DNA of 37,978 nt from Candidatus Aminicenantes bacterium (GTDB lineage: Archaea; Nanobdellota; Nanobdellia; Woesearchaeales; JAFCCF01): positions 1 through 37,978 of the forward strand of contig JAFCCF010000004.1 of assembly GCA_017610325.1 (NCBI GenBank), given 5' to 3'. Positions within the stretch are counted from its first letter, which is position 1; each line of letters starts with the position of its first letter. The notes below the pieces were generated by a model. The model worked only from the letters and a program-made list of their open reading frames with translations, ran no database searches and had not been told where the DNA came from. Below are positions 5,810 through 31,881 of this stretch, one piece after another. Made by a program: the position numbers and the translations under genes.

Positions 5810-7240
5810 ATGAAGATTGCTTTGGTAAACCCATATTTTAGCAGGAACATGCGCTTTGTGATACCTAAGATTATCCAGAAGGTTAGGGGCAAGTATCCTC
5901 CACTTGGGCTTGCCAGCGTCACAGCTTCACTTGAGCAGAAAGGTCATAAAGTTATTATTGTTGACGCAGAAGCTGGGGAGCTTTCAGCAGGCAATATTGC
6001 TGAGCAGGCTGCAGATTTCTCTGCTGAGCTTGTTGGAATTACTATAACAACCTGGACAGTGAACCATGCAAGGAAGATTGCCAGGGCTGTGAGGAAGAAG
6101 ATACCTGATATAAGGATTGCAGTCGGAGGACCTCAGGTGAAGGCGTTTCCAAGGCTCACACTAAAATTTTCTGAGTTTGATTATGGGGTTATAGGGGAAG
6201 GGGACATGACGTTTCCTGAGCTTGTAGACTCGCTTGAGAATAACAAGCCATTGTCCAAGGTCAAGGGGGTTGTTTTCAGGAAATCCAGTAAAATTATTCA
6301 GACACCCGCAAGAGAATATTGCCCTGACCTGGACAAGCTGCCCTCTCCTAGCTGGCACCTACTTCCAATTAAGAAATATCATGACATGCTCACAAGGAGA
6401 AAGCAGTTCATGGTTATGATTACCAGCAGAGGTTGCCCGTTCAACTGCACGTTCTGTGACCCAAGGAACACACTTGGCAAGCAGTTTCGTGCCTGGGGCG
6501 CTGACAGGCTCTTTTATGAAGTTAAGGTGCTATATGATAAGTATGGAATTAGGGAGATAATGTTCTTTGATGATTTGTTTACCTTTGACAGGAAACGTGT
6601 GATTGATTTTTGCAGGAAAATGATTAAAAGCAGCATGAACCTTATCTGGGACTGCAGGACAAGGGTCAATTGCATTGATGAGGAACTGATAAAATGGATG
6701 AAAAAAGCTGGCTGCTACAGGGTACGCTTCGGAGTTGAGTCAGGAAACCAGAAAATCCTGAACAGACTCAATAAAGGAATAACACTTGAGCAGGTTAGAA
6801 GGGCATTTGCACTTGCAAGGAAGTACAGGATAGAGTCCATGGCTTACTACATGCTGGGTTCACCTGGTGAGACTAAAGAGACACTCAGGCAGACAATTGA
6901 CTTTGCAGTGAAGCTTGACTCTGACTATGCACTATTTGCAGTAACAAGCCTCATGCCGCCAGGAAGCAGTTTGTTTGCCTGGGCTGCTGATGAAGGGTAC
7001 ATTGCAAGGGATTACTGGGAGAGATTTGTCTCAGGGGAGAAGCTTGACCCCTACCCAACCCTGAGCACACCGCAGCTTCCTGAAAAAACACTAAGGAGAT
7101 ACCACCAGCTTGCGCACCGCTGTTTTTATCTCAGGCCAATTATCTTTTTCAGAACCCTTAGAAGGCTAAGGTCCTGGATAGCTTTTAAGAACTCACTCCA
7201 AATCTTCATAAGCCTTGTGTTAAGGAGGTTTGATGCCTGA
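5810..7240 (+). CDS. Cobalamin-binding-domain radical SAM protein (class B methyltransferase-like)
   Basis: YPPLGLASV, VGGPQV, GEGD, TSRGCPFNCTFC, FGVESG, MLGSPGET. Confidence 0.92.
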   Translation: MKIALVNPYFSRNMRFVIPKIIQKVRGKYPPLGLASVTASLEQKGHKVIIVDAEAGELSAGNIAEQAADFSAELVGITITTWTVNHARKIARAVRKKIPDIRIAVGGPQVKAFPRLTLKFSEFDYGVIGEGDMTFPELVDSLENNKPLSKVKGVVFRKSSKIIQTPAREYCPDLDKLPSPSWHLLPIKKYHDMLTRRKQFMVMITSRGCPFNCTFCDPRNTLGKQFRAWGADRLFYEVKVLYDKYGIREIMFFDDLFTFDRKRVIDFCRKMIKSSMNLIWDCRTRVNCIDEELIKWMKKAGCYRVRFGVESGNQKILNRLNKGITLEQVRRAFALARKYRIESMAYYMLGSPGETKETLRQTIDFAVKLDSDYALFAVTSLMPPGSSLFAWAADEGYIARDYWERFVSGEKLDPYPTLSTPQLPEKTLRRYHQLAHRCFYLRPIIFFRTLRRLRSWIAFKNSLQIFISLVLRRFDA

Positions 7241-8772
7241 TGACAGATTATAACCTTGTAAGGATGTACATCATCTTCATAGCACTGGTCATATTTTTCA
7301 TACTTTCATTCAAAAGCCTGAAACAGCAGTTCAAGGGTGTGAACAAATCTGCCTGGGTGCTGCTCCTCATAATCTTCGTGCTTGCGCTTGTTCTCAGGCT
7401 TTCGGTGCCTCATTATTACAAGCTGTACATGGACGAGCCAAGGTATGTTGAGGTTGCCAAGAACATTGTGCTGCATGACCAGGCGCAGATTATGAAGTAT
7501 TACGGGGAATCAACATTCAAGTTCTTTGAGCCGTTCCATCCCATTGCCTGGCCATTCCTGATGTCAGTTGCCTTCAGGGTCTTTGGCATAAATGGCTTTG
7601 TTGCAGGTTATCTCAACACCATTATCAGCAGCCTGGCTGTGCTTATGGTATTCCTCTTTAGTTATCTACTGTTCAAGCGTGAGGATGTTGGGTTATGGGG
7701 TGGCTTGCTCCTTGCCTTAAATCCATTGCATGTGCACTGGTCCACAAGCGCAGGTGTTAATGCACCCTCGCTGTTTTTCATGCTCCTTTCACTTACAGCA
7801 TTTATCATATACTGTAGAAATAGGGATATAAAATTGCACCTGCTCGCAACATTCAGCTTTCTTTTCTCTGTGTTAATGAGGTTGGAATATGTAATGGTAT
7901 TTGTTCTGGTTGCATCAATCTACATGCTACACTGGAAGACCATAAAAAAAGAGGTAAGGAAACTAAGGTTCTGGTTGCCCTGGCTTGGCATTTTGCTGTT
8001 CTACAGGAATTATTACACAACCCTAATGCTTTTCATCAACAAGCTTAGGATAAATGGGGTAGCCCTGGTATTTGCAAGCAGTTCAGGCAGCTTTGGGCTG
8101 TCAAAGATTGTGTCTAACATTGGTTTGTTGTTTCAACACATCCTGAAAACCTACTCCCTAATGCTATTGGTGTTCATGTTAATCGGAATCTATGCAATAT
8201 TCAGAAAGAGAAAATCAGTCTTGCTGATGTTGCTTATATGGTTTGTTGTTTTCTCCGGCTTTTACATGAGCTATGTACAGTTCCAAGAAAGGCACCTATT
8301 ATTCCCAATGTTGGCGTTCCAGTTAGTTATTGCCTTTGGCATATCTTATGTGCTCAAGCTCAAGCAGGTAAAAAGATATAGGCAGCTTCTTGTAGCGGTG
8401 CTGGTAATCTTGATTGTAATCTTTATGGTGCCCAGGCTTTTGCTAATCTATAACATCACTGACTCCAATCTGCTCCAGACACAGGTTCCTGAGATTACAG
8501 AAGCAGCAGCACAGGATTGTTATATTGTGGCAAGCAGGCCAGCGCTGGTAAGCAGCTCAGCAGACCTGAAAGTTATCCCGCTTGATTATTTCCTTGCAAA
8601 TGATTTGGTGTTTTCCGGGCTGGCTGGTGAGTGTGTGCTGTTGTACAATGGCTCATACCTTTCCTCAGAAGACTTCCATGCAGTAAATGAGAAGTATGTT
8701 CTTGAAACATTCATTGACTTTAGAAGAGGAAACACTGTCTTTAGCCTTTACAATATCTCAGCTAAAGGTTGA
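7240..8772 (+). CDS. GT-C fold membrane glycosyltransferase (ArnT/PMT_2-like)
   Basis: Many hydrophobic helices; LVLRL...YMDEPRY first-loop DE motif; HP.AWP; LLLALNPLH; late ERHLL motif. Confidence 0.8.
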   Translation: MTDYNLVRMYIIFIALVIFFILSFKSLKQQFKGVNKSAWVLLLIIFVLALVLRLSVPHYYKLYMDEPRYVEVAKNIVLHDQAQIMKYYGESTFKFFEPFHPIAWPFLMSVAFRVFGINGFVAGYLNTIISSLAVLMVFLFSYLLFKREDVGLWGGLLLALNPLHVHWSTSAGVNAPSLFFMLLSLTAFIIYCRNRDIKLHLLATFSFLFSVLMRLEYVMVFVLVASIYMLHWKTIKKEVRKLRFWLPWLGILLFYRNYYTTLMLFINKLRINGVALVFASSSGSFGLSKIVSNIGLLFQHILKTYSLMLLVFMLIGIYAIFRKRKSVLLMLLIWFVVFSGFYMSYVQFQERHLLFPMLAFQLVIAFGISYVLKLKQVKRYRQLLVAVLVILIVIFMVPRLLLIYNITDSNLLQTQVPEITEAAAQDCYIVASRPALVSSSADLKVIPLDYFLANDLVFSGLAGECVLLYNGSYLSSEDFHAVNEKYVLETFIDFRRGNTVFSLYNISAKG

Positions 8773-9733
8773 GAACCGCTTTCTTATCTGTAATCTTTTC
8801 ACCAGGCATAGGCCTAAGCTCATCTACACCATAATGTTCTTCATAGTCATCCCACACTCCTTCGCATACAGGGTCAAACTTGCACTGCTTGCAGTTTTCA
8901 TGCTTCCTCTTCATCTCGCCCCGCCTTGTTTTCACAAAGTCAAGGTCTTGGTAGTCCACCCCCCTGAGCTGCATCCTTTCTGTTCGTATAAGCTCAGAGC
9001 TGAAGCGCTCCCTGTCCTTCATGTAGCAGTATGGCACAGACTCTATATTCATTGTCATTCCAAGCTCTATTGTCTTGTCAATCATGTCATATATGTGCTG
9101 CTCAGCCTCGCTGTACTTTGGAACAACATCATAGAAATACTTGCTCGCATTTCCCTGGCCATGCGGAAAAGCCACATTGAGATTTTTTACTCCATATTTG
9201 TGCAGAAGGATTATAGTATCAACAAGATGGGCAAGGTTAATCTTTGATATCACAATCTTTCCATTCACCCTGCAGTTGCCTGTAGCAAGCAGCCTCTTGA
9301 TGCCAGCCATGGTTTGTTTAAATGAACCCTTTACTCTCGTTATCTTGTCATGCACCTCTGCATTTGGGCCGTGTATTGCAATAGAATAGCTGATGAAAGC
9401 AATCTTTGAAACCCTTTCAGTGAATTCCTTATAATAAAACATCCTGCCATTTGTCTGCATTTGAATCTCAAAACCAAGCTGCTTTGCATATTCAATAATG
9501 TCAAACACATCGCCCCTTATAGTTATCTCGCCACCAGTAAGGACAATCACCTTTACACCATCCTGCTTTGCCTGGTTAAGGTCAATCTTTATCTCTTCGA
9601 AGGTGCGGTCAATGCGGATGCCCTGCTGCTCCATTCTTCTTCTGTTGCCTGCTATAACACAATGTATACAATCATTGTTGCATCCCCAGCCAACCTTTAT
9701 GTCAGCATACGGTATCTGGTCAAGCTCTACCAT
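8762..9733 (-). CDS. HxsC-like radical SAM protein (paralog 2)
   Basis: DIKVGWGCNNDCIHC, LTGGEIT, QTNGRMF, IHGPNAEVHDKIT..KGSF.QT..GI, C-terminal CKQCKFDPVCEG; lies downstream of HxsB. Confidence 0.75.
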   Translation of the reverse strand: MVELDQIPYADIKVGWGCNNDCIHCVIAGNRRRMEQQGIRIDRTFEEIKIDLNQAKQDGVKVIVLTGGEITIRGDVFDIIEYAKQLGFEIQMQTNGRMFYYKEFTERVSKIAFISYSIAIHGPNAEVHDKITRVKGSFKQTMAGIKRLLATGNCRVNGKIVISKINLAHLVDTIILLHKYGVKNLNVAFPHGQGNASKYFYDVVPKYSEAEQHIYDMIDKTIELGMTMNIESVPYCYMKDRERFSSELIRTERMQLRGVDYQDLDFVKTRRGEMKRKHENCKQCKFDPVCEGVWDDYEEHYGVDELRPMPGEKITDKKAVLNL

Positions 9734-9735
9734 TT

Positions 9736-10323
9736 TTATTTTATCGCCTTTATGTATATGGTTGTTTTATCAGGAGACTTTTTGCTCACCTGCTTGAGAA
9801 CCTTGCTGAAACCTGCTGTTCTGAGCGCCCTTTCAATGCGGTTGAACCAGAATCCATTAAGGTAATTTGCACGAGAGCCATACACAGTGTCAATCACAGC
9901 TTTTGAATCTTTAATATCTCCCTTGTTAAACCTGATTATAGTGTCAATTATGTCAGGCACCATGATGTGCAGCATCCCCCCTTTCTTTAGCACCCTACAC
10001 CAGTTGCCAAGCGCCTTCTGGTACAGGTTTCTCTCTATGGTGTTAAGTGTATTGTTAGCTAGTATTGTGTCAACAGAACCTATCTTGAAAAATCCAAGTG
10101 TTTTTATATCTCCAACTATCTGCGGCGAGTCAAAGAAATCAGAACCAACCCTGATTGCTTTCTGCTTTAGCTTGTTTCCCAGCTCAATAGACTCAGAACT
10201 CACATCAATGAATATCTTATTCTTATCAATAGCAATATTCTGGAAAACACTGTTCTCTTCTTCCTTAGGTTTATCCTTCGAAAAAAAATTATTAATTACC
10301 TCTCTCATGCTAACCTCTACCAA
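9736..10323 (-). CDS. Degenerate class I methyltransferase-like protein
   Basis: GSVDTILANNTL...WCRVLKKGGMLHIMVPD matches the C-terminal half of a Methyltransf_11 fold; no clear Gly-rich motif I. Confidence 0.6.
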   Translation of the reverse strand: MVEVSMREVINNFFSKDKPKEEENSVFQNIAIDKNKIFIDVSSESIELGNKLKQKAIRVGSDFFDSPQIVGDIKTLGFFKIGSVDTILANNTLNTIERNLYQKALGNWCRVLKKGGMLHIMVPDIIDTIIRFNKGDIKDSKAVIDTVYGSRANYLNGFWFNRIERALRTAGFSKVLKQVSKKSPDKTTIYIKAIK

Positions 10324-11281
10324 GGTTCAGCCACTCTGGGGGAATCTGCGTGATTTTTTCCCCAGCAACAGGCGTGAACTCGTCAAAACCCCTTCTTTCA
10401 GGGTACTCAATCCAGGGACCTTCGCATATCATATCATACCTGCAGTTCGCACATTTAGGACCCTTTTTCTTGGCAATGTTCTTTCTTGTATGCTCATAGC
10501 TTAGATTAATGCCAACCATGTCTCTCAGCTGGCTTGCAACCATCCTCAGCTCTGCTGCCCTCTTCTCCTCTCCAACCAGGAAGCAGAGCGGCACAGCCTC
10601 AAAATCAACCCACATCCCGAGCCTCTTAGATGTTTCAATTGCCTTGTCAATGTTTGGCTTCAGCTCACTATATGTCGGGATAACCTCCTCAAAGTAAAGC
10701 AGGGCATTTCCCTGGCCGTGTGGGAATGCAATATTAACACTTCTAGAACCAAATTTGTGGAACAGCTCCAGAATCTCAGCCAGGTACTCTTGATTATACC
10801 TTGAGATGACTATCTTGCCGCTGACTAGCTGGTTATACTTTTTCAGGTTCTTTATTCCATTTATTGTCTGATCAAATGCTCCCTTTGCTTTTGAAACCTT
10901 ATCATGAATCTCTGGGTTAGGGCCATTCAATGCCACAGTATATGCAGCAGGGCATGCATCTACAATCTTCTTTGTGAATTCTTCATAAGAGAACATCCTA
11001 CCATTTGTCTGGATGCCAACCATCATGCCAAGCTGCCTGGCATGCCTGAGTATTTCAAATATATCCTTCCTGATAGATATCTCTCCTCCAGTCAGCACAA
11101 TCTTTGATATACCGTGGTTTTTAGCCTGCTCCATCTGCTCTAAAACTTCTTGCGTGGAGCGGTCTATATTCTTTCCCTCACTCTTTAGCTGGCGCCGCTT
11201 GTCAGCTATCACGCAATGGATACAGTTATTATTACACGAAAATCCGGTTTTTATATCTGCGTATTTATCTCCTTCAGCCAT
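10310..11281 (-). CDS. HxsC-like radical SAM protein (paralog 1)
   Basis: DIKTGFSCNNNCIHC, LTGGEIS, QTNGRMFSY, AFPHGQGNA, CANCRYDMICEG; closely similar to 8762..9733. Confidence 0.75.
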   Translation of the reverse strand: MAEGDKYADIKTGFSCNNNCIHCVIADKRRQLKSEGKNIDRSTQEVLEQMEQAKNHGISKIVLTGGEISIRKDIFEILRHARQLGMMVGIQTNGRMFSYEEFTKKIVDACPAAYTVALNGPNPEIHDKVSKAKGAFDQTINGIKNLKKYNQLVSGKIVISRYNQEYLAEILELFHKFGSRSVNIAFPHGQGNALLYFEEVIPTYSELKPNIDKAIETSKRLGMWVDFEAVPLCFLVGEEKRAAELRMVASQLRDMVGINLSYEHTRKNIAKKKGPKCANCRYDMICEGPWIEYPERRGFDEFTPVAGEKITQIPPEWLNLGRG

Positions 11282-11294
11282 TTTAACCTGTCAT

Positions 11295-12731
11295 CTATTT
11301 CCCATTTGTCTTCCTTAATCCTGCCCAGCCAAGCAGAATATCCCTGTCTTCCTTGGAATAAAGAATCTTTTTGAATATGTACTCGATCATGCCCTTTCTT
11401 ATTTTGCATTCATGGTCAACTGCAAGTTTTGGCACGACACTGCCCTGCGCCCCGTATGTTGCAACCATACATGTTCCGCAGTACGGATGCCAGGGGCATG
11501 CATCACACATTGAGGCAAAGCCAGATGTCAGGCTGACAATGTCCTTTGCCTTAATCATGATATCTTTATAAGAATGGGTATTGACATTTCCCATCTTGAA
11601 TATATCAAATGACCTTGACTCATCACAGGTGTAGATATCACCATTATAATCATATGAAATCTGCCCAATCAGCGCTCCGCAGGGCGACCCAAAGCATGTA
11701 AATCCTCTTGTCCTATTTGTCAGGAGTCTCCAGAGTATCACCTGAATTTTGCTGTCAAGGAATTTCTTACCTTTCTTGTTAAGCTCAAGCTCATAATCAA
11801 ATACCTTTTTCCAGAATTCAAGGAACTCCTCTGAAGAGTACCCAATTTGTTCCCAGAGCTGTTTTGCAAAACCAGCAAAGTTCAGGTTCCTTGACATTAT
11901 GTTTGAGAAGCCATTCTTCAGGTATTCATCAATAATCTCCCTTGGGTAATTGAGCGATTCTTTTGTTATTGTTGGCAGTGCAGAGAAATTAAAGTCCTTC
12001 TTCAGCTCTTTGAACTTTTTTATAACCTCATCATATGAACTCTTGTGCCCAAAATATTTTCTCTGCTTGTCATGAAGCTTTTTCGGCCCGTCAAGGGATG
12101 AGCAAAACCTGATATTGTTCTTTTTCATGTAATCCTTTATCTCATCTGTGAATCCAACTGCGTTTGTGACAATTATGTACATGAGTTTCTTATTATAGCG
12201 CTTGTTAAGTTCTTGTGAGTATTCATATATGTATTTTATAACCGGGAAATTGAGGAGCGGTTCACCACCCTGGAACTCAATTGTAATATCTCTGGCAGGT
12301 GACTCAAAGAGGAACTCAACTACCTTCTTGGCATCCTCCTTACTCATGTCATACCCTTCTGCCTCTAGCGGCTTTGACTTTGCATGACAGTATACGCATG
12401 TGTGGTTGCATCTTAGGGTTACTGTGATAATGTGCAGACCTGCACCTCTAGATACATGGGCAAACTTGTTCCTGAGCTGCCGCGTGATTGACTCAATATT
12501 GTTCAGCGTTATTATAACTCCTTTTTCTTCCAAAAGCTTGTACAGCTGAGGATCTTCCCTTATCTTATTGTATCTTAGAAGGTCAAACTCTTCTTTGTTC
12601 AGGCACACCCACCCCCCGTGGTCTGTGGTGACAACTATATGTTCTTTATCAAATTTGTGGGTCAGGTACCTATTTACCTCAAACTCTTCTACTTTAACCG
12701 GTCCTTTATCTTCATAAAAACTAAAAGCCAC
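11295..12731 (-). CDS. hxsB: His-Xaa-Ser system radical SAM/SPASM maturase HxsB
   Basis: LHIITVTLRCNHTCVYCHA, IEFQGGEPLLNF, SSLDGPKKLHD, SPCGALIGQISYDYNGDIYTCDESR, CDACPWHPYCGTC; N-terminal extension; GTG 12731 has a GAGGT RBS (ORF open from 12791). Confidence 0.85.
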   Translation of the reverse strand: MAFSFYEDKGPVKVEEFEVNRYLTHKFDKEHIVVTTDHGGWVCLNKEEFDLLRYNKIREDPQLYKLLEEKGVIITLNNIESITRQLRNKFAHVSRGAGLHIITVTLRCNHTCVYCHAKSKPLEAEGYDMSKEDAKKVVEFLFESPARDITIEFQGGEPLLNFPVIKYIYEYSQELNKRYNKKLMYIIVTNAVGFTDEIKDYMKKNNIRFCSSLDGPKKLHDKQRKYFGHKSSYDEVIKKFKELKKDFNFSALPTITKESLNYPREIIDEYLKNGFSNIMSRNLNFAGFAKQLWEQIGYSSEEFLEFWKKVFDYELELNKKGKKFLDSKIQVILWRLLTNRTRGFTCFGSPCGALIGQISYDYNGDIYTCDESRSFDIFKMGNVNTHSYKDIMIKAKDIVSLTSGFASMCDACPWHPYCGTCMVATYGAQGSVVPKLAVDHECKIRKGMIEYIFKKILYSKEDRDILLGWAGLRKTNGK

Positions 12732-12741
12732 TTTTACCTCT

Positions 12742-12975
12742 TTACTGGTTTTGGTTTTGCATAATTCCCAGGAGGCAATCAAAAAATTCATAGCCTATAT
12801 TTGACAATTTGTCTATGTTCTTTGGTATTATGACAACCTTAGTGCTGTGATCTTCAACAGCAACATCACCAAAAGCCTTGAACTCTTCTGCTGCCCTGGA
12901 AACTATCTGTGGTGGATAGATTATTGTGTTAATCTTGATAACACATCTGTTGTCTTCAACCTTGACATTTTTCAT
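12742..12975 (-). CDS. Small HxsD-like protein
   Basis: 77 aa; INTIIYP...AAEEF...IGYEFFDCLL pattern parallels the N-terminal domain of 13003..13575; directly upstream of hxsB. Confidence 0.6.
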   Translation of the reverse strand: MKNVKVEDNRCVIKINTIIYPPQIVSRAAEEFKAFGDVAVEDHSTKVVIIPKNIDKLSNIGYEFFDCLLGIMQNQNQ

Positions 12976-13002
12976 GGTGCTCTACCCTTGAGGTTCACAC
13001 CC

Positions 13003-13575
13003 TCAGTCATCCCTTCTGGTGTTGTCCTTCATGATTCCCTTTGGATCTGCCACCCGGTCTTCTTCAGGAACCTGCACCTTTCTTATGCCCATTGGGTCAG
13101 GGACATTATCTGTCGGTCTTGGTCCTGGACCTCCTGGTCCCGGGCCACTTGGCTGAGGGAATCTCTGTGGCATTGGTTGTGGCGGGCCTGGCCCTCTCCT
13201 TGGCGGCTCTGGTCCTTTCCTTGGCGGCTCTGGTCCCCTTACATTGCCCCTAAGCGCGCTCTCCATGAGAGCTTCCCTAATTCTCTTGGTCCTTGTTGCC
13301 TGTATTGTATAGATTGAGTAGTTTATTAGCTCATCATTAAAGTTATAACCTATCTCTTTCAAATTCTTTTCACTAATCTCCCCATCAGCTTTTGGTCTTA
13401 GTTCAACCAGCACCTCGCTGTTTGGGTCACCATCAATAATAACATGGACCTTGTCCAGCATTGCATATGCTGCAGAGTAAATCACGCTCACTGGATAAAA
13501 TTTAGGATTCACAGATATAACTAAAAAATTTTTATGGATTTCAATATTATCCAAAATACTTTCTTTCTCACCCAT
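13003..13575 (-). CDS. hxsD: His-Xaa-Ser system protein HxsD with Pro/Gly-rich C-terminal tail
   Basis: VNPKFYPVSVIYSAAY...FNDELINYSI...TKRIREALMESAL resembles the HxsD consensus; tail GPEPPRK-GPEPPRR-GPGPP. Confidence 0.75.
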   Translation of the reverse strand: MGEKESILDNIEIHKNFLVISVNPKFYPVSVIYSAAYAMLDKVHVIIDGDPNSEVLVELRPKADGEISEKNLKEIGYNFNDELINYSIYTIQATRTKRIREALMESALRGNVRGPEPPRKGPEPPRRGPGPPQPMPQRFPQPSGPGPGGPGPRPTDNVPDPMGIRKVQVPEEDRVADPKGIMKDNTRRDD

Positions 13576-13603
13576 ATTAAACCCCCCAGTATATTATGTT
13601 CGA

Positions 13604-13630
13604 TTTAGACGATAACCCCCATATTTATAA
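13604..13630 (-). promoter_or_regulatory. TATA-like box plus TTATCGTCTAAA motif upstream of the hxsD operon
   Basis: Minus strand reads TTATAAA-8nt-TTATCGTCTAAA, ending ~30 bp before ATG 13575; same motif and spacing at 32216 and 35244. Confidence 0.5.
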
Positions 13631-13930
13631 ATCTTTGGTTTTAATTCATAGTTGGCCAAACTTGCTGTTAGCACGCTACTTTTTCTTCTATATTTTCATC
13701 ACCTATCTTTAACGAAACTACCTTTAAATCAAAAACTTTAAATATGAGGTGCCTACTTATATGGTTTAGAATAAGTGATAGAGATAATTGGGCGAGTATA
13801 TTTGTCTAATTAAGGGAAGTGTGGCGCAATAAATGAGTATTAAAAAGAGGTTTGTTTTATTAAGTAGACTTATGTATTTTTCTATCTCAAATAATCATTA
13901 TCATAGTTTTTATTCCATTAACCTGTTACG

Positions 13931-14101
13931 TTCTTTGCGCCACACTTCTGTCTCTGCACATCAGCAGAGGCAGAAGTTTTTAATTTCCCGTTCTTTGCGC
14001 CACACTTCTGTCTCTGCACATCAGCAGGGGCAGAAGTTTTTTCCTTCCTATTCATTGCGCCACACTTCTGTCTCTGCACATCAGCAGGGGCAGAAGTTTT
14101 T
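13931..14101 (+). repeat. Three tandem 60-bp units, each a 14-bp hairpin followed by a T tract
   Basis: TTC(T/A)TTGCGCCAC-ACTTCTGTCTCTGC-ACATCA-GCAG(A/G)GGCAGAAGT-TTTT at 13931, 13991 and 14051; ~9-nt variable gaps. Confidence 0.95.
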
Positions 14102-14162
14102 ATTTTCAGGCGCTTTAAAATATTTGTTTGAATCAAGCTGATAAAAAAGAAGGTGTTGACAG

Positions 14163-17093
14163 ATTAACAAAAAAGAGGCAGAGAGTAATAAGGCTTTTAC
14201 AGATATCAGGAGGCCTACCCTTCTCTCACACATAAAGAAAGCAATCACTTCTTTCGTTAAGGAAGAGGAAGCCTCAATTAACAAGCATGCTCTGCTTAGC
14301 GTTGGTAGTTTTATGGCTGCAGGTGTCATTGCATCACGGGTTGTTGAGGCATCTCAGGTTGTTGTCACGCACGACCATAGTGATATAGGTCATAGTAATT
14401 GCACATATCCAGACACCCATGACAACTGCCATACACAGAGCCACAGCAACTGCGCTTATCCAGAAACCCATGACAACTGTACATATCCAGACACCCATGA
14501 CAACTGCCATACTGTGAGTCATAGCAACTGCCATTCTAACTGCTCCTATCCAGATTATCACAACAACTGTTCATACCCTGAATCAACTTCACCTGACACA
14601 CACGACAACTGCCATACTGAGAGCCATAGCAACTGCCACTCTAACTGTACTTATCCTGACACGCACGACAACTGCCACTCTAACTGTACTTATCCAGAAT
14701 CCACTGCTCCAGAGACGCATGACAACTGCCATACTGTGAGCCATAGCAATTGCCACTCTAACTGTTCTTATCCAGATTCCCACAACAACTGCTCATACCC
14801 AGAATCAACTTCTCCTGACACGCATGACAACTGCCACACGCAGAGCCATAGCAACTGCCATTCTAACTGTGGTTATCCAGAATCCACTTCACCTGACACG
14901 CACGACAACTGTTCGTATCCAGAATCCACTGCTCCAGAGACGCATGACAACTGCCATACTGAGAGCCACAGCAACTGCCATTCTAACTGCTCCTATCCAG
15001 AATCGCACGACAACTGCCATTCTAACTGTACTTATCCAGAATCCACTTCACCTGACACGCACGACAACTGCCATACTGTGAGCCATAGCAACTGCCACTC
15101 TAATTGTAGTTATCCTGAGTCACACTCAAACTGCCACTCTAACTGCTCATACCCAGAATCCACTTCACCTGACACGCACGACAACTGCCACACGCAGAGC
15201 CACAGCAACTGCCACTCTAATTGTGGTTATCCAGAATCCACTTCACCTAATACGCACGACAACTGCTCATACCCAGAATCCACTTCACCTAACACGCACG
15301 ATAACTGCCACACTGTGAGCCACAACAACTGCCACTCTAATTGTGGTTATCCAGATTCCCACAACAACTGCTCATACCCTGAATCAACTGCTCCAGAGAC
15401 GCACGACAACTGCCATACTGTGAGCCACAGCAACTGCCACTCTAATTGTGGTTATCCAGATTACCACAACAACTGCAGTTATCCGCAGTCCCACGACAAC
15501 TGCCATACCTCAGGTCACAACAACTGCAGTTATCCGCAGTCCCACGACAACTGCCATACCGCAGGCCACAATAACTGTGGTTATCCAGAATCGCACAGCA
15601 ACTGCCACAGTAACTGTTCCTATCCAGAATCCACTGCCCCAGGTTACCATAACAACTGCCACTCAAACTGCTCTTATCCAAATTCCGTTAATCCAAACAC
15701 CCACAACAACTGCCACTCAAACTGCTCTTATCCAAATTCTGGTAATCCAAACACCCACAACAACTGCACCTATGTGAATGCCCACAGCAACTGCCACTCT
15801 AACTGTACTTATCCAGCATCCCAATCTCCAGCTGCTCATTCTAACTGCCACAGTAACTGTTCCTATCCAGAGTCCACTGCTCCAAACACCCACACTAACT
15901 GCCACTCTAATTGTGGTTATCCAGACTCCACTGCCCCAAATTACCACAACAACTGTAGCTATCCGCAGTCCCATGATAACTGCCATACCTCAGGCCACAA
16001 TAATTGTAGTTATCCAGAATCGCACGACAACTGCCATACCTCAAGCCACAATAACTGCTCCTATCCGCAGTCCCACGACAACTGCGCATACCCTGAATCC
16101 ACTTCCCCAAACACCCATGACAACTGCCATACTGAGAGCCATAGCAACTGCCACTCTAACTGTACTTATCCTGACACGCACGACAACTGCCACTCTAACT
16201 GTACTTATCCAGAATCCACTTCACCTGATACGCACGATAACTGCCACACTGAGAGCCACAGCAACTGCCACTCTAACTGTACTTATCCAGAATCAACTTC
16301 TCCAAATACGCACGACAACTGCTCTTATCCAGAATCCACTTCACCTGACACGCACGATAACTGCCACACTGAGAGCCACAGCAACTGCCATTCTAATTGT
16401 GGTTATCCAGAATCCACTTCACCTGACACGCACGATAACTGCTCTTATCCAGAATCCACTTCTCCAGAGACGCACGACAACTGCCATACTGAGAGCCACA
16501 GCAACTGCCACTCTAACTGCTCCTATCCAGAATCGCACGACAACTGCCATTCTAACTGTACTTACCCAGAATCCACTGCTCCAGAGACGCATGATAACTG
16601 CCATACTGAGAGCCACAGCAACTGCCATTCTAACTGCTCCTATCCAGAATCACACGACAACTGCTCATACCCGGACTCAACTTCACCTGACACGCACGAT
16701 AACTGCCACACTGAGAGCCACAGCAACTGCCATTCTAACTGTACTTACCCAGAATCCACTGCTCCAGAATCGCACGATAACTGTACATACCCTGACTCAA
16801 CTTCACCTGACACACACGACAACTGCCATACTGAGAGCCACAGCAACTGCCACTCTAACTGTTCCTATCCAGAATCACACGACAACTGCTCATACCCTGA
16901 ATCAACTGCTCCAGAGACGCACGACAACTGCCATACTGTGAGCCACAGCAACTGCTCCTATCCTGAGTCGCACTCAAACTGCGAATCTCCTGATACTCAC
17001 GATAATTGTCACACCCAGAGCCACAGCAACTGTACATATCCTCAGGAAGACCCATCGCACACATCATCCATTGATGTTACAAACACGGAGTAG
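14163..17093 (+). CDS. Giant His-x-Asn-Cys repeat protein; putative substrate (HxsA-like precursor) of the Hxs maturases
   Basis: About 101 H[S/D/N/T]NC motifs by manual count, with synonymous codon variation among repeats. First ATG is 14313, but the frame is open from 14160 and ATT 14163 lies 7 nt after AGGTG, adding a leader-like 50 aa. Confidence 0.85.
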   Translation: MNKKEAESNKAFTDIRRPTLLSHIKKAITSFVKEEEASINKHALLSVGSFMAAGVIASRVVEASQVVVTHDHSDIGHSNCTYPDTHDNCHTQSHSNCAYPETHDNCTYPDTHDNCHTVSHSNCHSNCSYPDYHNNCSYPESTSPDTHDNCHTESHSNCHSNCTYPDTHDNCHSNCTYPESTAPETHDNCHTVSHSNCHSNCSYPDSHNNCSYPESTSPDTHDNCHTQSHSNCHSNCGYPESTSPDTHDNCSYPESTAPETHDNCHTESHSNCHSNCSYPESHDNCHSNCTYPESTSPDTHDNCHTVSHSNCHSNCSYPESHSNCHSNCSYPESTSPDTHDNCHTQSHSNCHSNCGYPESTSPNTHDNCSYPESTSPNTHDNCHTVSHNNCHSNCGYPDSHNNCSYPESTAPETHDNCHTVSHSNCHSNCGYPDYHNNCSYPQSHDNCHTSGHNNCSYPQSHDNCHTAGHNNCGYPESHSNCHSNCSYPESTAPGYHNNCHSNCSYPNSVNPNTHNNCHSNCSYPNSGNPNTHNNCTYVNAHSNCHSNCTYPASQSPAAHSNCHSNCSYPESTAPNTHTNCHSNCGYPDSTAPNYHNNCSYPQSHDNCHTSGHNNCSYPESHDNCHTSSHNNCSYPQSHDNCAYPESTSPNTHDNCHTESHSNCHSNCTYPDTHDNCHSNCTYPESTSPDTHDNCHTESHSNCHSNCTYPESTSPNTHDNCSYPESTSPDTHDNCHTESHSNCHSNCGYPESTSPDTHDNCSYPESTSPETHDNCHTESHSNCHSNCSYPESHDNCHSNCTYPESTAPETHDNCHTESHSNCHSNCSYPESHDNCSYPDSTSPDTHDNCHTESHSNCHSNCTYPESTAPESHDNCTYPDSTSPDTHDNCHTESHSNCHSNCSYPESHDNCSYPESTAPETHDNCHTVSHSNCSYPESHSNCESPDTHDNCHTQSHSNCTYPQEDPSHTSSIDVTNTE

Positions 17094-17107
17094 ATTGTTC
17101 TAGCAAA

Positions 17108-18190
17108 ATGAACATAATCACTATATTATCTCTCTTAAGGCCCTACATATTGTTTGCAATAATCATTGCTCTTGGAATTATAGCTTCATACACTGATGTT
17201 AAAAAAAGGAGGATTGAGAACAGGTTTGTGATTCCTGCCTTTATAATTGGGCTGCTTATCAACCTAACTTACTGGGGCATGGATTTTCTGGGGCACTACC
17301 TCTTTGGCGTTCTCTTTGCGCTGTTTGTGACTTTTGTGTTGTGGTATGTAGGGTTCTGGAATGCAGGGGATGGCAAGCTTTTTCTTGCATTTACCAGCCT
17401 GATTCCAGCAGCGTTGTTGTATGGCGGTGTTGCGCAGCTTCACTCATACTGGATAATCTTCTACACATTTGTACCTGTGTTCTTTGTTCTTCTGGTGCTA
17501 CTGATAATTCATACCAGGTGGAAAGACATAAAATATGTATTAAAGGAGTTTATCAAGCCACAGGCAATATTCCTTGTGATGCTGGCTTTCTTTGCATTTC
17601 AGTGGATTATCCATATCTTCAACGATGCAACCGGCATTACCCTTAACTTCTTTATCAGCGTGCTAATCCTGTTCTTTTTCTTTGAGGCTATGGAAAAGAT
17701 ATTACCGTTCAGGATAATGTCAATATTTGTTATTGTTGCAATCTCCAGGTTTATCATTGACTTCCGCACCATTTTCACATTTGATTTTGTTATAGTCTTT
17801 TTTCTTCAATTCTCTGTTTTCATAATAATGGTATATTTCATACTCCATCTTGCCTATGTGAAATATGGTAAGCATGCTAAGATCCAAGACCTTAAGCCAG
17901 GCATGTTACTGTCTGAAATCATCTACAAGAAGGGAAAGGTTTACGCAACCAGGCCAAATGTGCAGATAAGCCTCTTCATGTTCCTCAGGACAAAGGTGAA
18001 AGAAAAGCCGCTTATTGAGATTACTTCCAATGGTTTGACTAGGGAAGATATTGAACTGCTAAAAAGATTGCACAGGGAAAAAAAGCTGGAGGTTGGCTCT
18101 TTGCTTGTTCAGATGAGGATACCATTTGCACCTTTCCTGTTCCTTGGCGTAGTGTTATATATACTTACAGAACTTCTTCATGTTTTTTAG
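17108..18190 (+). CDS. A24-family prepilin/preflagellin-type aspartic peptidase
   Basis: ASYTDVKKRRIEN (first Asp), WNAGDGKLF (GxGD-type second Asp), multiple TM helices, C-terminal IPFAPFLFLG. Confidence 0.88.
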   Translation: MNIITILSLLRPYILFAIIIALGIIASYTDVKKRRIENRFVIPAFIIGLLINLTYWGMDFLGHYLFGVLFALFVTFVLWYVGFWNAGDGKLFLAFTSLIPAALLYGGVAQLHSYWIIFYTFVPVFFVLLVLLIIHTRWKDIKYVLKEFIKPQAIFLVMLAFFAFQWIIHIFNDATGITLNFFISVLILFFFFEAMEKILPFRIMSIFVIVAISRFIIDFRTIFTFDFVIVFFLQFSVFIIMVYFILHLAYVKYGKHAKIQDLKPGMLLSEIIYKKGKVYATRPNVQISLFMFLRTKVKEKPLIEITSNGLTREDIELLKRLHREKKLEVGSLLVQMRIPFAPFLFLGVVLYILTELLHVF

Positions 18191-24987: not shown

Positions 24988-26372
24988 ACATTGCATTAAT
25001 ATATCCGAGGCTAAAATATCCGTCAGGCGACCCTCCACTTGGTCTTGCCTCTCTTGCATCTTCTGTTCTAACTAATCTCAAAAATGTTGAAGTGAATCTG
25101 ATTGACCTTACATTTCACGCAAGCCTTGATTATCTGAAAGATATTTTCAGGAAACATAAATATGATTTGGTCTGCCTGACAGCAGCCACAATCTTTATGC
25201 CAGATGTGCTCAAGATAGCTAAGCTGTGCAAAAAGTTGCAGCCTGGCTGTAAGATTATTATTGGCGGGCCCCATCCCTCATCTGACCCAGAGGATGCAAT
25301 AGGGCATAGGGAAATTGATGGAATTGTGATAGGTGAGGCTGAAGAAACCTGTGTTGAGATTGTAAAGGCATTTCTGGACAATGGGGAACTGTCAACTGCC
25401 AGGGGATTCTGGTTCAAGAAAGGAAAAAAGATTATCAGGAGTGAAAGAAGAGAGCCAATCAAAGACCTTGACAAGGTGCCTTTTCCAGCATGGCACCTGC
25501 TAGAGATGGAGAAATACTTTAAGTATTGGTTCCAGATGGACTGTGTATCACTTAACCTGAGAGGCACATCAATGGTTGCTTCCAGGGGCTGCCCCTATAA
25601 ATGCTCATTTTGCCAGCCTACCTTGTGGAACATGTTTGGAAGAAAAATCAGGTACAGGAGCACAGGCAATGTTGTTGATGAGATTGCTGAACTGAAAAAA
25701 AGGTATAATGTGAGTGCTGTGTGGTTTGTGGATGACACATTTACAATTGATAAAAGATGGGTCAAGGAATTCTGTGAAAAGCTGATTAACCGCAGGCTTA
25801 ATATTGTGTGGGGCTGTACAATACGAGCTAATCTTGCTGATAAAGACTTGTTGAGGCTCATGAAAAAATCAGGCTGCAGACTAATTGGAATTGGAATTGA
25901 ATCTGCAAGCCAGAGAATCCTGGATGAAATATATAATAAGAATATTAAGGTAGCTCAGGTTAAGGAGGCAGTCAGGGTAACGCACTCCTTAGGCATCAAA
26001 CTCAGGGGGCAGTTCATGATAGGTGCTCCAACCGAGACCCTGGAAGAGATTAAAAGGACAATAAGGTTTGCCTATAAGCTGGACCTTGATGAGGCAACTT
26101 TCTCGATAACATCCCCATTGCCGCACACATTCCTATATGAAATGGCTAAGAAAAAGGGCTGGCTTAATGTTAAGGGCTATTCAAGCTTTGATTATTATGA
26201 TAATTATGCATTTAAGCCAACAGCTGGCCTGGACACTAAAGCCCTTATCAAGCTGAAGAGAAAGGCGTTCATTAAGTTTTATTCCAGGCCAAGAAGGTTC
26301 ATTGCCCTGGTCAAGAACTTGCTTAACCCAAGGGCATTCAGGCACAACATGCTCAAGCTTAAGAGGTTTTGA
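24984..26372 (+). CDS. Cobalamin-binding-domain radical SAM protein
   Basis: PPLGLASLA, IIGGPHP, GEAE, SRGCPYKCSFC, GIES, FMIGAPTET. Confidence 0.92.
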   Translation: MNIALIYPRLKYPSGDPPLGLASLASSVLTNLKNVEVNLIDLTFHASLDYLKDIFRKHKYDLVCLTAATIFMPDVLKIAKLCKKLQPGCKIIIGGPHPSSDPEDAIGHREIDGIVIGEAEETCVEIVKAFLDNGELSTARGFWFKKGKKIIRSERREPIKDLDKVPFPAWHLLEMEKYFKYWFQMDCVSLNLRGTSMVASRGCPYKCSFCQPTLWNMFGRKIRYRSTGNVVDEIAELKKRYNVSAVWFVDDTFTIDKRWVKEFCEKLINRRLNIVWGCTIRANLADKDLLRLMKKSGCRLIGIGIESASQRILDEIYNKNIKVAQVKEAVRVTHSLGIKLRGQFMIGAPTETLEEIKRTIRFAYKLDLDEATFSITSPLPHTFLYEMAKKKGWLNVKGYSSFDYYDNYAFKPTAGLDTKALIKLKRKAFIKFYSRPRRFIALVKNLLNPRAFRHNMLKLKRF

Positions 26373-31436: not shown

Positions 31437-31469
31437 AATTGGCAATGTTTCTATTATAAAATCCCCTTT

Positions 31470-31880: not shown

Positions 31881-31881
31881 C

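What the first reader, a model, noticed from the sequence alone, without database searches (positions are those of the whole stretch)
8762..18190. Candidate new system: Hxs maturase operon, ~100-motif His-x-Asn-Cys mega-precursor and prepilin-type peptidase
Seen: hxsD-hxsD'-hxsB-hxsC-MTase-hxsC on the minus strand share a divergent intergenic region with a ~930-980 aa repeat protein, and an A24 peptidase gene starts 14 bp after its stop. Established: His-Xaa-Ser systems pair HxsB/HxsC radical SAM enzymes and HxsD with a short HxS-repeat precursor (HxsA), and some SPASM maturases crosslink aromatic-X-X tripeptides into cyclophanes. Inference: here the substrate is far longer than a typical RiPP precursor, uses H-x-N-C in place of H-x-S, and would be membrane-targeted and cleaved by a pilin-type peptidase. 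The product would be a heavily crosslinked surface or metal-binding polymer rather than a small peptide.
Basis: partly seen in the sequence, partly recalled or inferred. Interest (0 to 1): 0.95.

Follow-up and report, generated by a model that had tools for sequence, protein, structure and literature searches.

The report
Archaeal Hxs cassette with giant precursor
A small-genome archaeon carries a radical-SAM "His-Xaa-Ser" protein-maturation gene set whose target is a giant protein with 101 His-x-Asn-Cys motifs, followed by a dedicated pilin-type peptidase, a combination that recurs in related archaea but was not found in the papers searched.

Summary
The minus strand encodes HxsD, an HxsD-like protein, HxsB (above its NCBIfam cutoff), two HxsC-like radical SAM enzymes and a methyltransferase-like gene. 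The plus strand holds a 2.9-kb open frame with exactly 101 H-x-N-C motifs, and an A24 peptidase gene starts 14 nt after its stop.

New evidence ties the parts together.
- The frame upstream of the first ATG encodes a leader homologous to NCBIfam HxsA3 and to small precursors beside hxsB in related archaea.
- The peptidase belongs to a separate hxs-linked A24 clade, adjacent to hxsD/hxsB in 12 of 21 related loci.
- HxsD–leader and A24–PMT_2 fusions occur in relatives.
- H-x-N-C precursors form a small subfamily, found in four metagenomic contigs and one protein fragment.
- These genes are preceded by conserved tandem hairpins.

Caveats:
- The leader-containing frame has no canonical start codon (ATC where relatives have ATG).
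- HxsC, HxsD and HxsA scores fall below curated cutoffs.
- The cleavage site is not a classic class III motif.
- The chemistry is unknown.
- The repeat count could not be checked against reads.

Verdict: a real new variant of the Hxs system, with a pilin-type peptidase as the probable leader peptidase. Interest 0.7.

The parts
13003..13575 (-). hxsD-like gene (190 aa). The HxsD domain is about residues 1-115, followed by a Pro/Gly-rich tail.
   Evidence: TIGR03976 46.5 bits (cutoff 50). Homologs are found in 20 of 31 related loci, and relatives' copies pass the cutoff (50.2 and 50.5). AlphaFold2 model pLDDT 89.9.
12742..12975 (-). Second, small HxsD-like gene (77 aa, HxsD_rel type).
   Evidence: NF038315 33.9 bits (cutoff 41). 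Relatives' copies score 55 and 55.8. The same position between hxsD and hxsB is occupied in relatives.
11295..12791 (-). hxsB, a radical SAM/SPASM maturase (498 aa).
   Evidence: TIGR03978 419.9 bits, above the cutoff of 370. Pfam Radical_SAM, Fer4_12 and SPASM. A CxxxCxxC motif is visible in the translation. Nearest solved structure is 5wgg, 98.9 bits.
10310..11281 (-). HxsC-like radical SAM enzyme a (323 aa).
   Evidence: Best NCBIfam hits are HxsC4 at 137 bits (cutoff 500) and HxsC at 97.1 (cutoff 267.9). Homologs in 6 of 31 related loci, directly after hxsB in L052.
9736..10323 (-). Methyltransferase-like gene (195 aa, TTG start). It matches only positions 22-94 of the 95-position Methyltransf_11 model.
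   Evidence: PF08241 31.7 bits. No homolog in the 31 related loci.
8762..9733 (-). HxsC-like radical SAM enzyme b (323 aa).
   Evidence: HxsC4 132.6 bits and HxsC 84.2, both below cutoff. Homologs in 8 of 31 loci; the best (283 bits) lies directly after hxsB in L020.
13815..13828 (+). Segment exactly complementary (14 of 14) to the 5' flank plus first stem bases of each downstream hairpin unit; a possible competing pairing partner.
   Evidence: Read from the sequence. An analogous complementary segment occurs upstream of the hairpin arrays in L083 (14 of 15) and L084 (11 of 15).
13930..14105 (+). Three tandem ~60-nt units. Each has a 14-bp hairpin (13944-13977, 14004-14037, 14064-14097) followed by a T-run.
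   Evidence: 4 terminator-like sites in the region against 0.7 expected. G-U pairs favour the + strand (-78.5 against -63.5 kcal/mol). Unique in the genome. No Rfam match. The same architecture precedes H-x-N-C precursor genes in L082, L083, L084 and L085. The consensus hairpin has 9 pairs, 5 with compensatory changes.
14160..17093 (+). Open frame of the giant HxsA-type precursor (977 codons). The first canonical start is ATG 14313. The homology-inferred start is ATC 14205.
   Evidence: No ATG, GTG or TTG lies in frame between 14160 and 14312.
14205..14306 (+). HxsA3-like leader, ending at a conserved Gly.
   Evidence: NF038309 21.9 bits, E 1.1e-4; six-frame hit 14226-14447, 25.7 bits, E 8e-6. 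Aligns with 24 relatives' leaders, with P0009 (57% identity) and with four metagenomic loci.
14289..14345 (+). Hydrophobic segment (19 residues, mean Kyte-Doolittle 1.74); a presumed membrane or signal segment.
   Evidence: Conserved in position in all aligned relatives.
14367..14381 (+). T-H-D-H-S signature, shared with the cores of relatives' precursors.
   Evidence: Two His are invariant in the four-sequence alignment. The same H-x-H motif is seen in precursors printed and in P0009 and L082-L085.
14391..17033 (+). Repeat array: 101 H-x-N-C motifs in 49 units that begin [S/T/A/G]-Y-P. 41 Cys are followed by x-Y-P-[D/E], and 41 Asn lie in N-C-[S/T].
17108..18190 (+). A24 (class III signal peptidase-type) aspartic peptidase with an archaeal C-terminal domain; a member of the hxs-linked clade.
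   Evidence: PF01478 45.2 bits and PF06819 38.9 bits. Both Asp motifs are present (D30, D88). In the tree it groups with 16 hxs-linked A24s, split from 3 unlinked A24s by a 100/100 branch. Adjacent to hxsD/hxsB in 12 of 21 related loci.
7240..8772 (+). PMT_2-family glycosyltransferase abutting the cassette; a possible accessory gene (weak link).
   Evidence: PF13231 36.9 bits. One relative's hxs-linked A24 is fused to a PMT_2 domain (L045). A homolog (99.7 bits) lies about 7 kb from the H-x-N-C precursor in L082. No homolog in the 31 related loci.

Best explanation
This is an archaeal variant of the His-Xaa-Ser (Hxs) protein-maturation system. Its substrate is a giant precursor, and a dedicated pilin-type (A24) peptidase most likely serves as the leader peptidase.

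Proposed course:
1. The precursor is made with a ~34-residue HxsA3-like leader, a ~20-residue hydrophobic segment, a T-H-x-H-S signature and 101 H-x-N-C motifs.
2. In the cytoplasm the leader is recognised by HxsD and the HxsD-like protein working with HxsB. HxsB, and probably the two HxsC-like radical SAM enzymes, modify the His-centred motifs.
3. The hydrophobic segment inserts into the membrane, with the leader inside and the core outside.
4. The hxs-clade A24 peptidase cuts at the cytoplasmic face, most plausibly after the conserved Gly that precedes the hydrophobic stretch.
5. The result is a very acidic, His/Cys-rich, possibly glycosylated polymer on the cell surface.

Shown here: gene content, family relationships, leader homology, conserved synteny, the separate A24 clade, the gene fusions and protein-level selection on the motif. 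Inferred: every biochemical step, the topology, the cleavage site and the function.

The chemistry is open. Candidates are a His-C2 to Asn-C-beta cyclophane as in triceptides, a Cys thioether to the Asp/Glu of C-x-Y-P-[D/E], or the undefined +8 Da change reported for E. coli HxsA.
For: 1. HxsB passes its curated cutoff (419.9 against 370). The HxsD, HxsD_rel and HxsC-like genes each have an Hxs model as their best NCBIfam hit.

2. The region in frame upstream of ATG 14313 matches NCBIfam HxsA3 (six-frame E 8e-6) and aligns with 24 relatives' leaders. The 14 control genomes gave no HxsA3 match.

3. Leader and hxsB are linked. Leader matches occur in 66 of 300 other same-order genomes (one of them, G207, is unpublished). 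HxsB occurs in 11 of 40 and 49 of 400. Of 27 relatives that show both in those tables, the leader lies within ~2 kb of hxsB in 19, 13-17 kb away in 2, and on another contig in 6 (my reading of coordinates).

4. A24 linkage, over 21 fetched hxsB loci: an A24 gene abuts the hxsD/hxsB block in 12; lies 5-8 kb away in 2; cannot be assessed because the contig ends in 3; and is absent from the fetched flank in 4.

5. Four of five relatives checked hold two A24 genes, one unlinked and one hxs-linked. The window's A24 groups with the 16 hxs-linked ones, separated from 3 unlinked ones by a 100/100 branch of length 3.14. Both Asp motifs are kept in 19 of 20 aligned sequences.

6. Natural fusions. HxsD(-like)-leader-core proteins occur as four genes in two genomes (L049 x2, L078, L075). 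There they sit beside YcaO genes and hxs-clade A24 genes, in a genome where one search found no HxsB. This argues that HxsD, the leader and A24 form a module that can serve different maturases. An A24-Arc_PepC-PMT_2 fusion occurs in L045.

7. The motif is under protein-level selection.

8. H-x-N-C precursors with the same leader recur in P0009 and in L082-L085, which start with Met.
Against: - No ATG, GTG or TTG precedes the leader in frame. Relatives' Met aligns at or within two codons of ATC 14205. From the first ATG the protein would lack the leader and half the hydrophobic segment.
- HxsC-like scores are far below the cutoffs. HxsD, HxsD_rel and the leader are also below their cutoffs, and no leader in 301 genomes reached the HxsA3 cutoff.
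- The leader does not show the [K/R]-[G/A] class III site (a motif I recall; not tested by a predictor).
- Many relatives have an Ala-x-Ala-like stretch just before the first core His. Signal peptidase I could therefore be the processing enzyme.
- Four of 21 hxsB loci show no A24 in the flank.
- In L027, pilin-like genes with classic signal peptides sit next to the hxs-linked A24.
- In L082-L084 no hxsB, hxsD or A24 lies in the 2.7-10 kb upstream of the H-x-N-C gene. Downstream is lost at the contig ends.
- The core is strongly acidic (net charge about -101, no K or R), unlike the basic, DNA-binding bacterial HxsA (PMC13128918, sections 8-10 read).
- The HxsD model has no RRE-like or other confident structural match (0 hits at E <= 0.001).
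- The array length is unverified.
Confidence: 0.6

Rival explanations
1. The Hxs enzymes do modify the repeat protein, but the A24 peptidase is not its leader peptidase. It processes pilin-like or other class III substrates of the same surface-biogenesis island. The leader is removed by signal peptidase I after the hydrophobic segment, or is not removed at all.
For: - The leader lacks the classic [K/R]-[G/A] site (recalled motif; sequences).
- Relatives often show an Ala-x-Ala-like stretch before the first core His.
- L027 has three pilin-like genes with classic signal peptides directly beside its hxs-linked A24.
- Four of 21 hxsB loci lack an A24 in the flank.
- In this genome (86% complete) the window's A24 is the only A24 found, so it may also have to serve any pilins.
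Against: - An A24 gene abuts hxsD/hxsB in 12 of 21 loci, across many families of the order.
- The hxs-linked A24s form their own clade apart from the unlinked copies held by the same genomes.
- A24 also accompanies the HxsD-leader fusion proteins where hxsB is missing.
Confidence: 0.2
2. The gene is inactive in this genome, or its size is an artefact. The start codon has decayed (ATG to ATC), or the array was mis-joined during assembly, so no 101-motif product is made as read.
For: - No canonical start lies before the leader, while P0009 and L082-L085 start with Met at or within two codons of the aligned position.
- A 102-nt exact repeat 1515 nt apart could mislead an assembler.
- All four metagenomic relatives break off inside their arrays.
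- No reads could be found.
Against: - The 2.9-kb frame is intact, with all 101 motifs preserved, and only this frame is open.
- Few k-mers of 77 nt or longer are repeated (26 of 2679 at k=77, 4 of 2679 at k=99).
- A single-base call (C for G) or use of a near-cognate AUC start would explain the start equally well.
- Collapse, the usual repeat error, would make the true array longer, not shorter (general knowledge).
Confidence: 0.13
3. The repeat protein is an unmodified His/Cys-rich metal-binding or surface protein, and its position next to the Hxs genes is coincidental.
For: - 127 His, 101 Cys and 111 acidic residues make a plausible metal ligand set by themselves.
- No Pfam or NCBIfam family matches the full protein.
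- In L082-L084 no hxs gene is seen upstream.
Against: - The HxsA3-type leader and the T-H-x-H-S signature are shared with precursors that sit next to hxsB in 19 of 27 relatives.
- The divergent arrangement with hxsD-hxsD'-hxsB is also seen in L033.
Confidence: 0.07

Closest known systems
Bacterial HXS antiphage system (HxsA, B, C, D; Nat Commun 2026, PMC13128918; abstract and sections 8-10 read)
   Same: It has an HxsB-type radical SAM/SPASM enzyme, an HxsD-family small protein and a second radical SAM enzyme. Its precursor has His-centred short repeats, is processed at the N-terminus and is exported to the envelope.
   Different: The bacterial system:
- is ordered hxsD-B-C-A on one strand;
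[quoted passage not shown]
- has no peptidase gene;
- is 99.7% Pseudomonadota.

This locus:
- is archaeal, with a divergently transcribed precursor of about 960 aa;
- has 101 H-x-N-C motifs, an acidic core and no peptidoglycan-binding domain;
- has two HxsD-type genes and HxsC-like genes that fail the HxsC cutoff;
- has a dedicated A24 peptidase.
NCBIfam variant models HxsA3 (NF038309), HxsA4 (NF038313), HxsC4 (NF038332) and HxsD_rel (NF038315)
   Same: The window's leader, HxsC-like and HxsD-like proteins have these models as best or only hits. A relative's 492-aa H-x-S/T precursor passes HxsA4 (61.6 against 55), and relatives' HxsD_rel pass.
   Different: All the window's scores are below the cutoffs. 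No leader in 301 same-order genomes reaches the HxsA3 cutoff. No paper in the searched library uses these names, and nothing I could see links them to an A24 peptidase.
Triceptides: three-residue cyclophane RiPPs made by radical SAM/SPASM enzymes (HaaB on HAA, YhhB on HNR, HtkB on HTK; PMC11499958, abstract and passages read)
   Same: A His at position 1 of a three-residue motif is crosslinked (His-C2 to residue-3 C-beta) by an rSAM/SPASM enzyme. H-x-N would fit the pattern.
   Different: HxsB scores only 70 bits on the YhhB model (cutoff 445) and 81.4 on GrrM/OscB (cutoff 310). Triceptide precursors are short peptides with few motifs. No chemistry was tested here.
Archaeal class III signal peptidases with dedicated substrates (FlaK/PibD; EppA with Epd pilins)
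   Same: The A24 fold with an Arc_PepC domain and two Asp motifs, in a paralog dedicated to one substrate set and encoded next to it. The best NCBIfam hit is EppA at 56.2 bits (cutoff 450).
   Different: The partner genes are radical SAM maturases, not a pilus assembly ATPase and platform. The presumed substrate lacks the classic cleavage motif. The 2026 archaeal type IV filament census does not contain the words 'radical SAM' (PMC13705601, term search only).
Ranthipeptides (PapB family, Cys-x3-Asp/Glu thioethers; motif recalled from memory)
   Same: PapB is HxsB's second-best NCBIfam hit (161 bits). 41 of the 101 Cys are followed by x-Y-P-[D/E], i.e. Cys-x3-Asp/Glu.
   Different: The score is below the PapB cutoff (340). 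50 of the 101 Cys are followed by His instead. This is a lead only.

Membership tests
His-Xaa-Ser (Hxs) system | HxsB radical SAM/SPASM maturase scoring above the TIGR03978 cutoff | tested here: met
   419.9 bits against a cutoff of 370.
His-Xaa-Ser (Hxs) system | Paired HxsC radical SAM enzyme above the TIGR03977 cutoff | tested here: not met
   97.1 and 84.2 bits against 267.9; HxsC4 137 and 132.6 against 500. These are the top one or two NCBIfam hits (for P0003 heme b synthase, 93.3 bits, ranks between HxsC4 and HxsC) but far below cutoff.
His-Xaa-Ser (Hxs) system | HxsD small protein above the TIGR03976 cutoff | tested here: inconclusive
   46.5 against 50 for the window's protein. Orthologous positions in relatives score 50.2 and 50.5.
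His-Xaa-Ser (Hxs) system | HxsA precursor with His-Xaa-Ser repeats | tested here: not met
   Only 4 H-x-S against 101 H-x-N-C. No HxsA model matched at E <= 10. Only the leader matches HxsA3, at 21.9-25.7 bits against a cutoff of 65.
His-Xaa-Ser (Hxs) system | Gene order hxsD-hxsB-hxsC-hxsA (99.6% of bacterial systems, PMC13128918 section 10) | tested here: not met
   The precursor is divergently transcribed. There are extra hxsD-like, methyltransferase-like, second HxsC-like and A24 genes.
His-Xaa-Ser (Hxs) system | Antiphage activity by blocking DNA entry | not testable with these tools
   PADLOC v2 gave only generic radical SAM cross-hits to viperin models.
A24 prepilin / class III signal peptidase | A24 domain above the Pfam threshold with both catalytic Asp motifs | tested here: met
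   PF01478 45.2 bits (cutoff 26.5) and PF06819 38.9 (cutoff 23.4). D30 and D88 are present and conserved in 19 of 20 aligned homologs. That these two Asp are the catalytic pair is recalled knowledge of the family.
A24 prepilin / class III signal peptidase | [quoted passage not shown] | tested here: inconclusive
   A conserved Gly precedes the hydrophobic stretch. However, the leader is ~34 residues, position -2 is not basic, and no signal-peptide predictor was available.
Triceptide (three-residue cyclophane) RiPP | Maturase belonging to a cyclophane-forming rSAM/SPASM family | tested here: not met
   YhhB 70 bits against 445; GrrM/OscB 81.4 against 310; AmcB 60.1 against 425.
Triceptide (three-residue cyclophane) RiPP | C-C crosslink between residue 1 (aromatic or His) and residue 3 | not testable with these tools
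   Needs mass spectrometry and NMR.
Ranthipeptide (PapB type) | PapB-family maturase above cutoff, with a Cys-x3-Asp/Glu substrate | tested here: not met
   PapB model 161 bits against 340. The motif itself is present 41-42 times.

The most novel reading that the evidence does not exclude
A clade of pilin-type (A24) aspartic peptidases has been recruited as the leader peptidase of a radical-SAM maturation pathway. Small-genome archaea would thus modify a protein in the cytoplasm and then display it on the membrane the way a pilin is processed. The precursors range from ~80-aa peptides to a ~960-aa protein with 101 modification motifs. HxsD would be the leader-binding adaptor, and the HxsD-leader-A24 module would be portable between maturases (radical SAM or YcaO). 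The H-x-N-C subfamily would additionally be controlled by a conserved tandem-hairpin RNA leader. By analogy with bacterial HXS, the product could be an envelope coat that interferes with virus entry, or one that mediates contact with host cells.
Probability: 0.4. Interest if true: 0.85.

Novelty: new variant of a known kind. Interest (0 to 1): 0.7.

Why it matters
The Hxs system was predicted from genomes for years and gained a function only in 2026, as an envelope-based antiphage barrier in Proteobacteria. Its chemistry is still undefined.

The archaeal variant described here is common. HxsB occurs in roughly one in eight to one in four of the sampled genomes of this order. The variant adds three things that can be tested directly:
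- a dedicated pilin-type peptidase as the candidate for the unexplained N-terminal processing step;
- natural HxsD-leader fusions that point to what HxsD does;
- precursors with tens to a hundred identical motifs, which would make any mass shift easy to detect.

If the model holds, it links two fields that have not met: RiPP-style radical SAM maturation and class III signal peptide processing. It would also define a way for very small archaea to build heavily modified surface polymers.

Tried and rejected
- **Long relatives of the repeat protein.** The whole 957-aa query against proteins of 526-1675 aa gave 0 hits. The 193-aa query against proteins of 339-2000 aa gave 0 hits. The tool itself calls this weak evidence.
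- **ESM Atlas.** No usable hit.
- **Tandem H-x-N-C in the order.** A degenerate DNA pattern gave 27 matches in the window's genome and single matches in 6 of 400 others. The reversed-pattern control also gave 6 single matches.
- **Rfam.** No match at gathering thresholds over the window, and none at E <= 1 over 13576-14330.
- **tRNA.** None in the window.
- **HxsD fold.** The model is confident, but Foldseek against the PDB found 0 matches at E <= 0.001. The top rows are Rpb11-like and DCoH-like at TM about 0.5, with secretion-chaperone-like folds lower down. I draw no conclusion from it. A profile search of PDB sequences found nothing significant.
- **PADLOC.** Only generic radical SAM cross-hits to viperin models.
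- **Named genomes.** A search with HxsB gave a single locus, a Saccharibacteria MAG at 36% identity with no A24 or leader nearby, so the organism's name could not be read off.
- **Sequencing runs.** None was listed, and no RNA holder was listed.
- **Rejected: the hairpin repeats as a CRISPR array.** The intervals are 10-15 nt and alike.
- **Rejected: AGGAGG (14208-14213) as a Shine-Dalgarno element for a CTT start.** I considered this. It was superseded when P0009 and L082-L085 showed that these bases align with codons 2-3 of the relatives.
- **Not seen.** Supplementary files of PMC13128918 (its list of 10,369 HxsA proteins) were not available. They might name archaeal members.

Full report
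**What is there.** The window is a whole 37,978-bp contig of a 1.12-Mb, 86%-complete genome. The genome carries a full-length match to the archaeal SSU rRNA model (1398 bits). Its A24 peptidase has the archaeal C-terminal domain. I take the organism to be a small-genome archaeon. Its name could not be determined.

- Minus strand: HxsD-like, HxsD_rel-like, HxsB, HxsC-like, methyltransferase-like, HxsC-like.
- Then a 737-nt divergent region.
- Plus strand: the repeat gene and, 14 nt after its stop, an A24 peptidase gene.

HxsB passes its curated cutoff (419.9 against 370). HxsD (46.5 against 50), HxsD_rel (33.9 against 41) and the two HxsC-like enzymes (97.1 and 84.2 against 267.9) do not, although an Hxs model is the best hit for each.

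The rest of the contig is rich in radical SAM, glycosyltransferase, PMT_2 and DUF2079 genes. Only HxsB, HxsD, A24 and the HxsC-like genes recur in relatives' loci: 21, 20, 15 and 8/6 of 31 loci.

**The repeat protein is real and selected.**
- It has exactly 101 H-x-N-C motifs, which hold every Cys.
- They are arranged in 49 units that begin [S/T/A/G]-Y-P. 41 Cys are followed by x-Y-P-[D/E], and 41 Asn lie in N-C-[S/T].
- Only this frame is open.
- Motif codons vary synonymously, and the x-position Ser is written with both codon families.
- The core is extremely acidic: net charge about -101, with no Lys or Arg.
- The exact count depends on the assembly. The longest exact internal repeat is 102 nt, and no reads could be listed.

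**The repeat protein belongs to the Hxs precursor family.** The frame is open from 14160, but the first ATG/GTG/TTG is at 14313. The stretch in between encodes a leader that matches NCBIfam HxsA3: 21.9 bits, and 25.7 bits in the six-frame search with none of 14 control genomes matching. It aligns with small proteins encoded next to hxsB in relatives.

The shared plan is:
- a basic start;
- a conserved Phe;
- an acidic patch;
- Lys-x-x-Leu;
- a conserved Gly;
- a ~20-residue hydrophobic segment;
- an H-x-H signature, which the window keeps as T-H-D-H-S;
- usually a tail of H-x-S repeats ending in Trp or Tyr.

Leader matches occur in 66 of 300 other genomes of the order (one of them, G207, is unpublished). 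HxsB occurs in 11 of 40 and 49 of 400. Among 27 relatives showing both, the leader lies within about 2 kb of hxsB in 19 (coordinates).

Most precursors are 80-270 aa, but long ones exist. One is a 492-aa H-x-S/T protein that passes the HxsA4 cutoff, and it has a neighbour interrupted by an assembly gap.

**The H-x-N-C type is a subfamily.** A 121-aa fragment (P0009) and four metagenomic contigs (L082-L085) carry near-identical leaders and H-x-N-C arrays with a different linker. All four break off inside the array, with 3, 12, 15 and 24 motifs read. L084 and L085 are nearly the same sequence.

None of 400 other genomes of the order has a tandem H-x-N-C gene.

These relatives start with Met. Counting back from a shared motif, their Met falls at or within two codons of the window's ATC at 14205. 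The window's gene therefore either uses a near-cognate start, carries a base-call error, or has lost its start. I cannot tell which.

**The peptidase is a dedicated paralog.**
- Among 21 fetched hxsB loci, an A24 gene abuts the hxsD/hxsB block in 12, lies 5-8 kb away in 2, cannot be assessed in 3 (contig ends) and is not in the flank in 4.
- Four of five relatives checked have a second, unlinked A24 of ~300 aa that matches Pfam better.
- In a tree of 20 sequences, the window's enzyme and 16 hxs-linked ones are split from 3 unlinked ones by a 100/100 branch. Two further unlinked copies did not reach the phmmer threshold and were left out.
- Both Asp motifs are kept.
- In the window's own genome this is the only A24 found.

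**Fusions that suggest how the parts work together.**
- Four genes in two genomes fuse an HxsD(-like) domain to the leader, the hydrophobic segment and a Cys/Gly-rich core. They sit beside YcaO genes and hxs-clade A24 genes, in a genome where no HxsB was found.
- One hxs-linked A24 is fused to a PMT_2 glycosyltransferase domain.
- A PMT_2 gene abuts the window's cassette, and a homolog lies near the L082 precursor.

I read HxsD, the leader and A24 as a portable recognition-and-processing module, with glycosylation as a possible later step. The direct test of HxsD-leader binding could not be run because the complex predictor was unreachable (seven attempts). The HxsD model has no informative structural match.

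**Mechanism and its limits.** The most likely course is: cytoplasmic modification of the His-centred motifs by HxsB with HxsD and the HxsC-like enzymes; membrane insertion; leader removal by the A24 paralog at the conserved Gly; and display of an acidic His/Cys-rich polymer.

The chemistry is unknown. His-C2 to residue-3 C-beta cyclophanes are established for HaaB, YhhB and HtkB (PMC11499958, passages read). E. coli HxsA carries an undefined +8 Da change and is processed at its N-terminus by an unidentified route (PMC13128918, sections 8-10). The Cys-x3-Asp/Glu spacing, together with PapB as second-best hit, raises a thioether alternative (the PapB motif is recalled).

Against the peptidase step:
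- there is no classic class III site;
- many relatives have an Ala-x-Ala-like stretch after the hydrophobic segment;
- in L027, pilin-like genes sit beside the A24.

**A conserved upstream element.** The divergent region holds three tandem 14-bp hairpins with T-runs on the plus strand. An upstream 14-nt segment is exactly complementary to the flank and first stem bases of each unit.

The H-x-N-C relatives have the same design with different sequences: 4, 7, at least 3, and 2 hairpins. They also have complementary upstream segments (14 of 15 and 11 of 15) and a compensatory swap within one array. A consensus fold gives 9 pairs, 5 of them with compensatory changes. No Rfam family matches. I take it to be a cis-regulatory RNA leader of unknown mode.

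**Novelty.** In the searched library:
- the papers holding Hxs gene names do not mention archaea or prepilin peptidases;
- none uses the names HxsA3, HxsA4 or HxsC4;
- none combines RiPP, archaea, radical SAM and prepilin peptidase.

NCBIfam already models several variant parts. I therefore file this as a new variant of a known kind, not a new system.

Noticed in passing
window 13815-14105; L082 9817-9985; L084 2937-3264; L085 36-163; L083 2682-2840: Conserved tandem-hairpin element upstream of H-x-N-C precursor genes. There are 2-7 hairpin units per locus. Stem sequences differ between loci, with compensatory changes. A further-upstream segment is complementary to the flank and first stem bases of each unit. 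No Rfam match.
   Followed up: partly
window 14160-14313: The leader-encoding part of the precursor frame has no ATG, GTG or TTG. Relatives' Met aligns at or within two codons of ATC 14205. This could be a near-cognate start, a base-call error or a decayed start.
   Followed up: partly
L049 5605-6207 (-) and 14260-15450 (-); L078 1743-2363 (-); L075 1761-2342 (-): Natural fusions of an HxsD(-like) domain with the HxsA3-type leader, a hydrophobic segment and Cys/Gly-rich cores. In L049 they lie next to two YcaO genes and two hxs-clade A24 genes, in a genome where no HxsB was found at E <= 1e-40.
   Followed up: partly
L045 12295-14958 (-): An hxs-linked A24 peptidase fused to a PMT_2 glycosyltransferase domain (887 aa).
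   Followed up: no
L037 9361-10161 (-); L049 14260-15450 (-): Precursors with the same leader that end in a Hint/intein-like autoprocessing domain.
   Followed up: no
L035 10273-11751 (-) and 8369-10218 (-): A 492-aa precursor made almost wholly of H-x-S/T repeats (passes the HxsA4 cutoff). A second long one beside it is interrupted by an assembly gap.
   Followed up: partly
L027 12309-14141 (-): Three pilin-like genes with classic class III signal peptides directly beside the hxs-linked A24. This is relevant to the rival reading of the peptidase.
   Followed up: no
window 13003-13230 (-): The window's HxsD carries a ~75-residue Pro/Gly-rich C-terminal tail. It is longer than the C-terminal extensions of the relatives' HxsD proteins printed (113-137 aa in total).
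   Followed up: no
window 26369-29204 (+): A full-length DUF2079 gene is followed by two ORFs that match the N- and C-terminal halves of DUF2079 (27847-28650 and 28653-29204). This may be a split or frameshifted paralog.
   Followed up: no
window 31400-36000: A low-GC stretch (0.28-0.35 against ~0.41 elsewhere) with a DUF6036 nucleotidyltransferase-like gene and a TrmB-like regulator. It may be foreign DNA.
   Followed up: no
window 19315-21255 (+): A radical SAM domain fused to a GT9 (heptosyltransferase-family) domain. Homologs occur in L040 and L035 near their precursors (178 and 129 bits).
   Followed up: no
L082 7073-9364 (+); L084 201-2486 (+): Two H-x-N-C loci share the same upstream gene pair: a ~190-aa protein with an N-terminal hydrophobic segment and a ~560-aa protein. 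The window has no counterpart.
   Followed up: no
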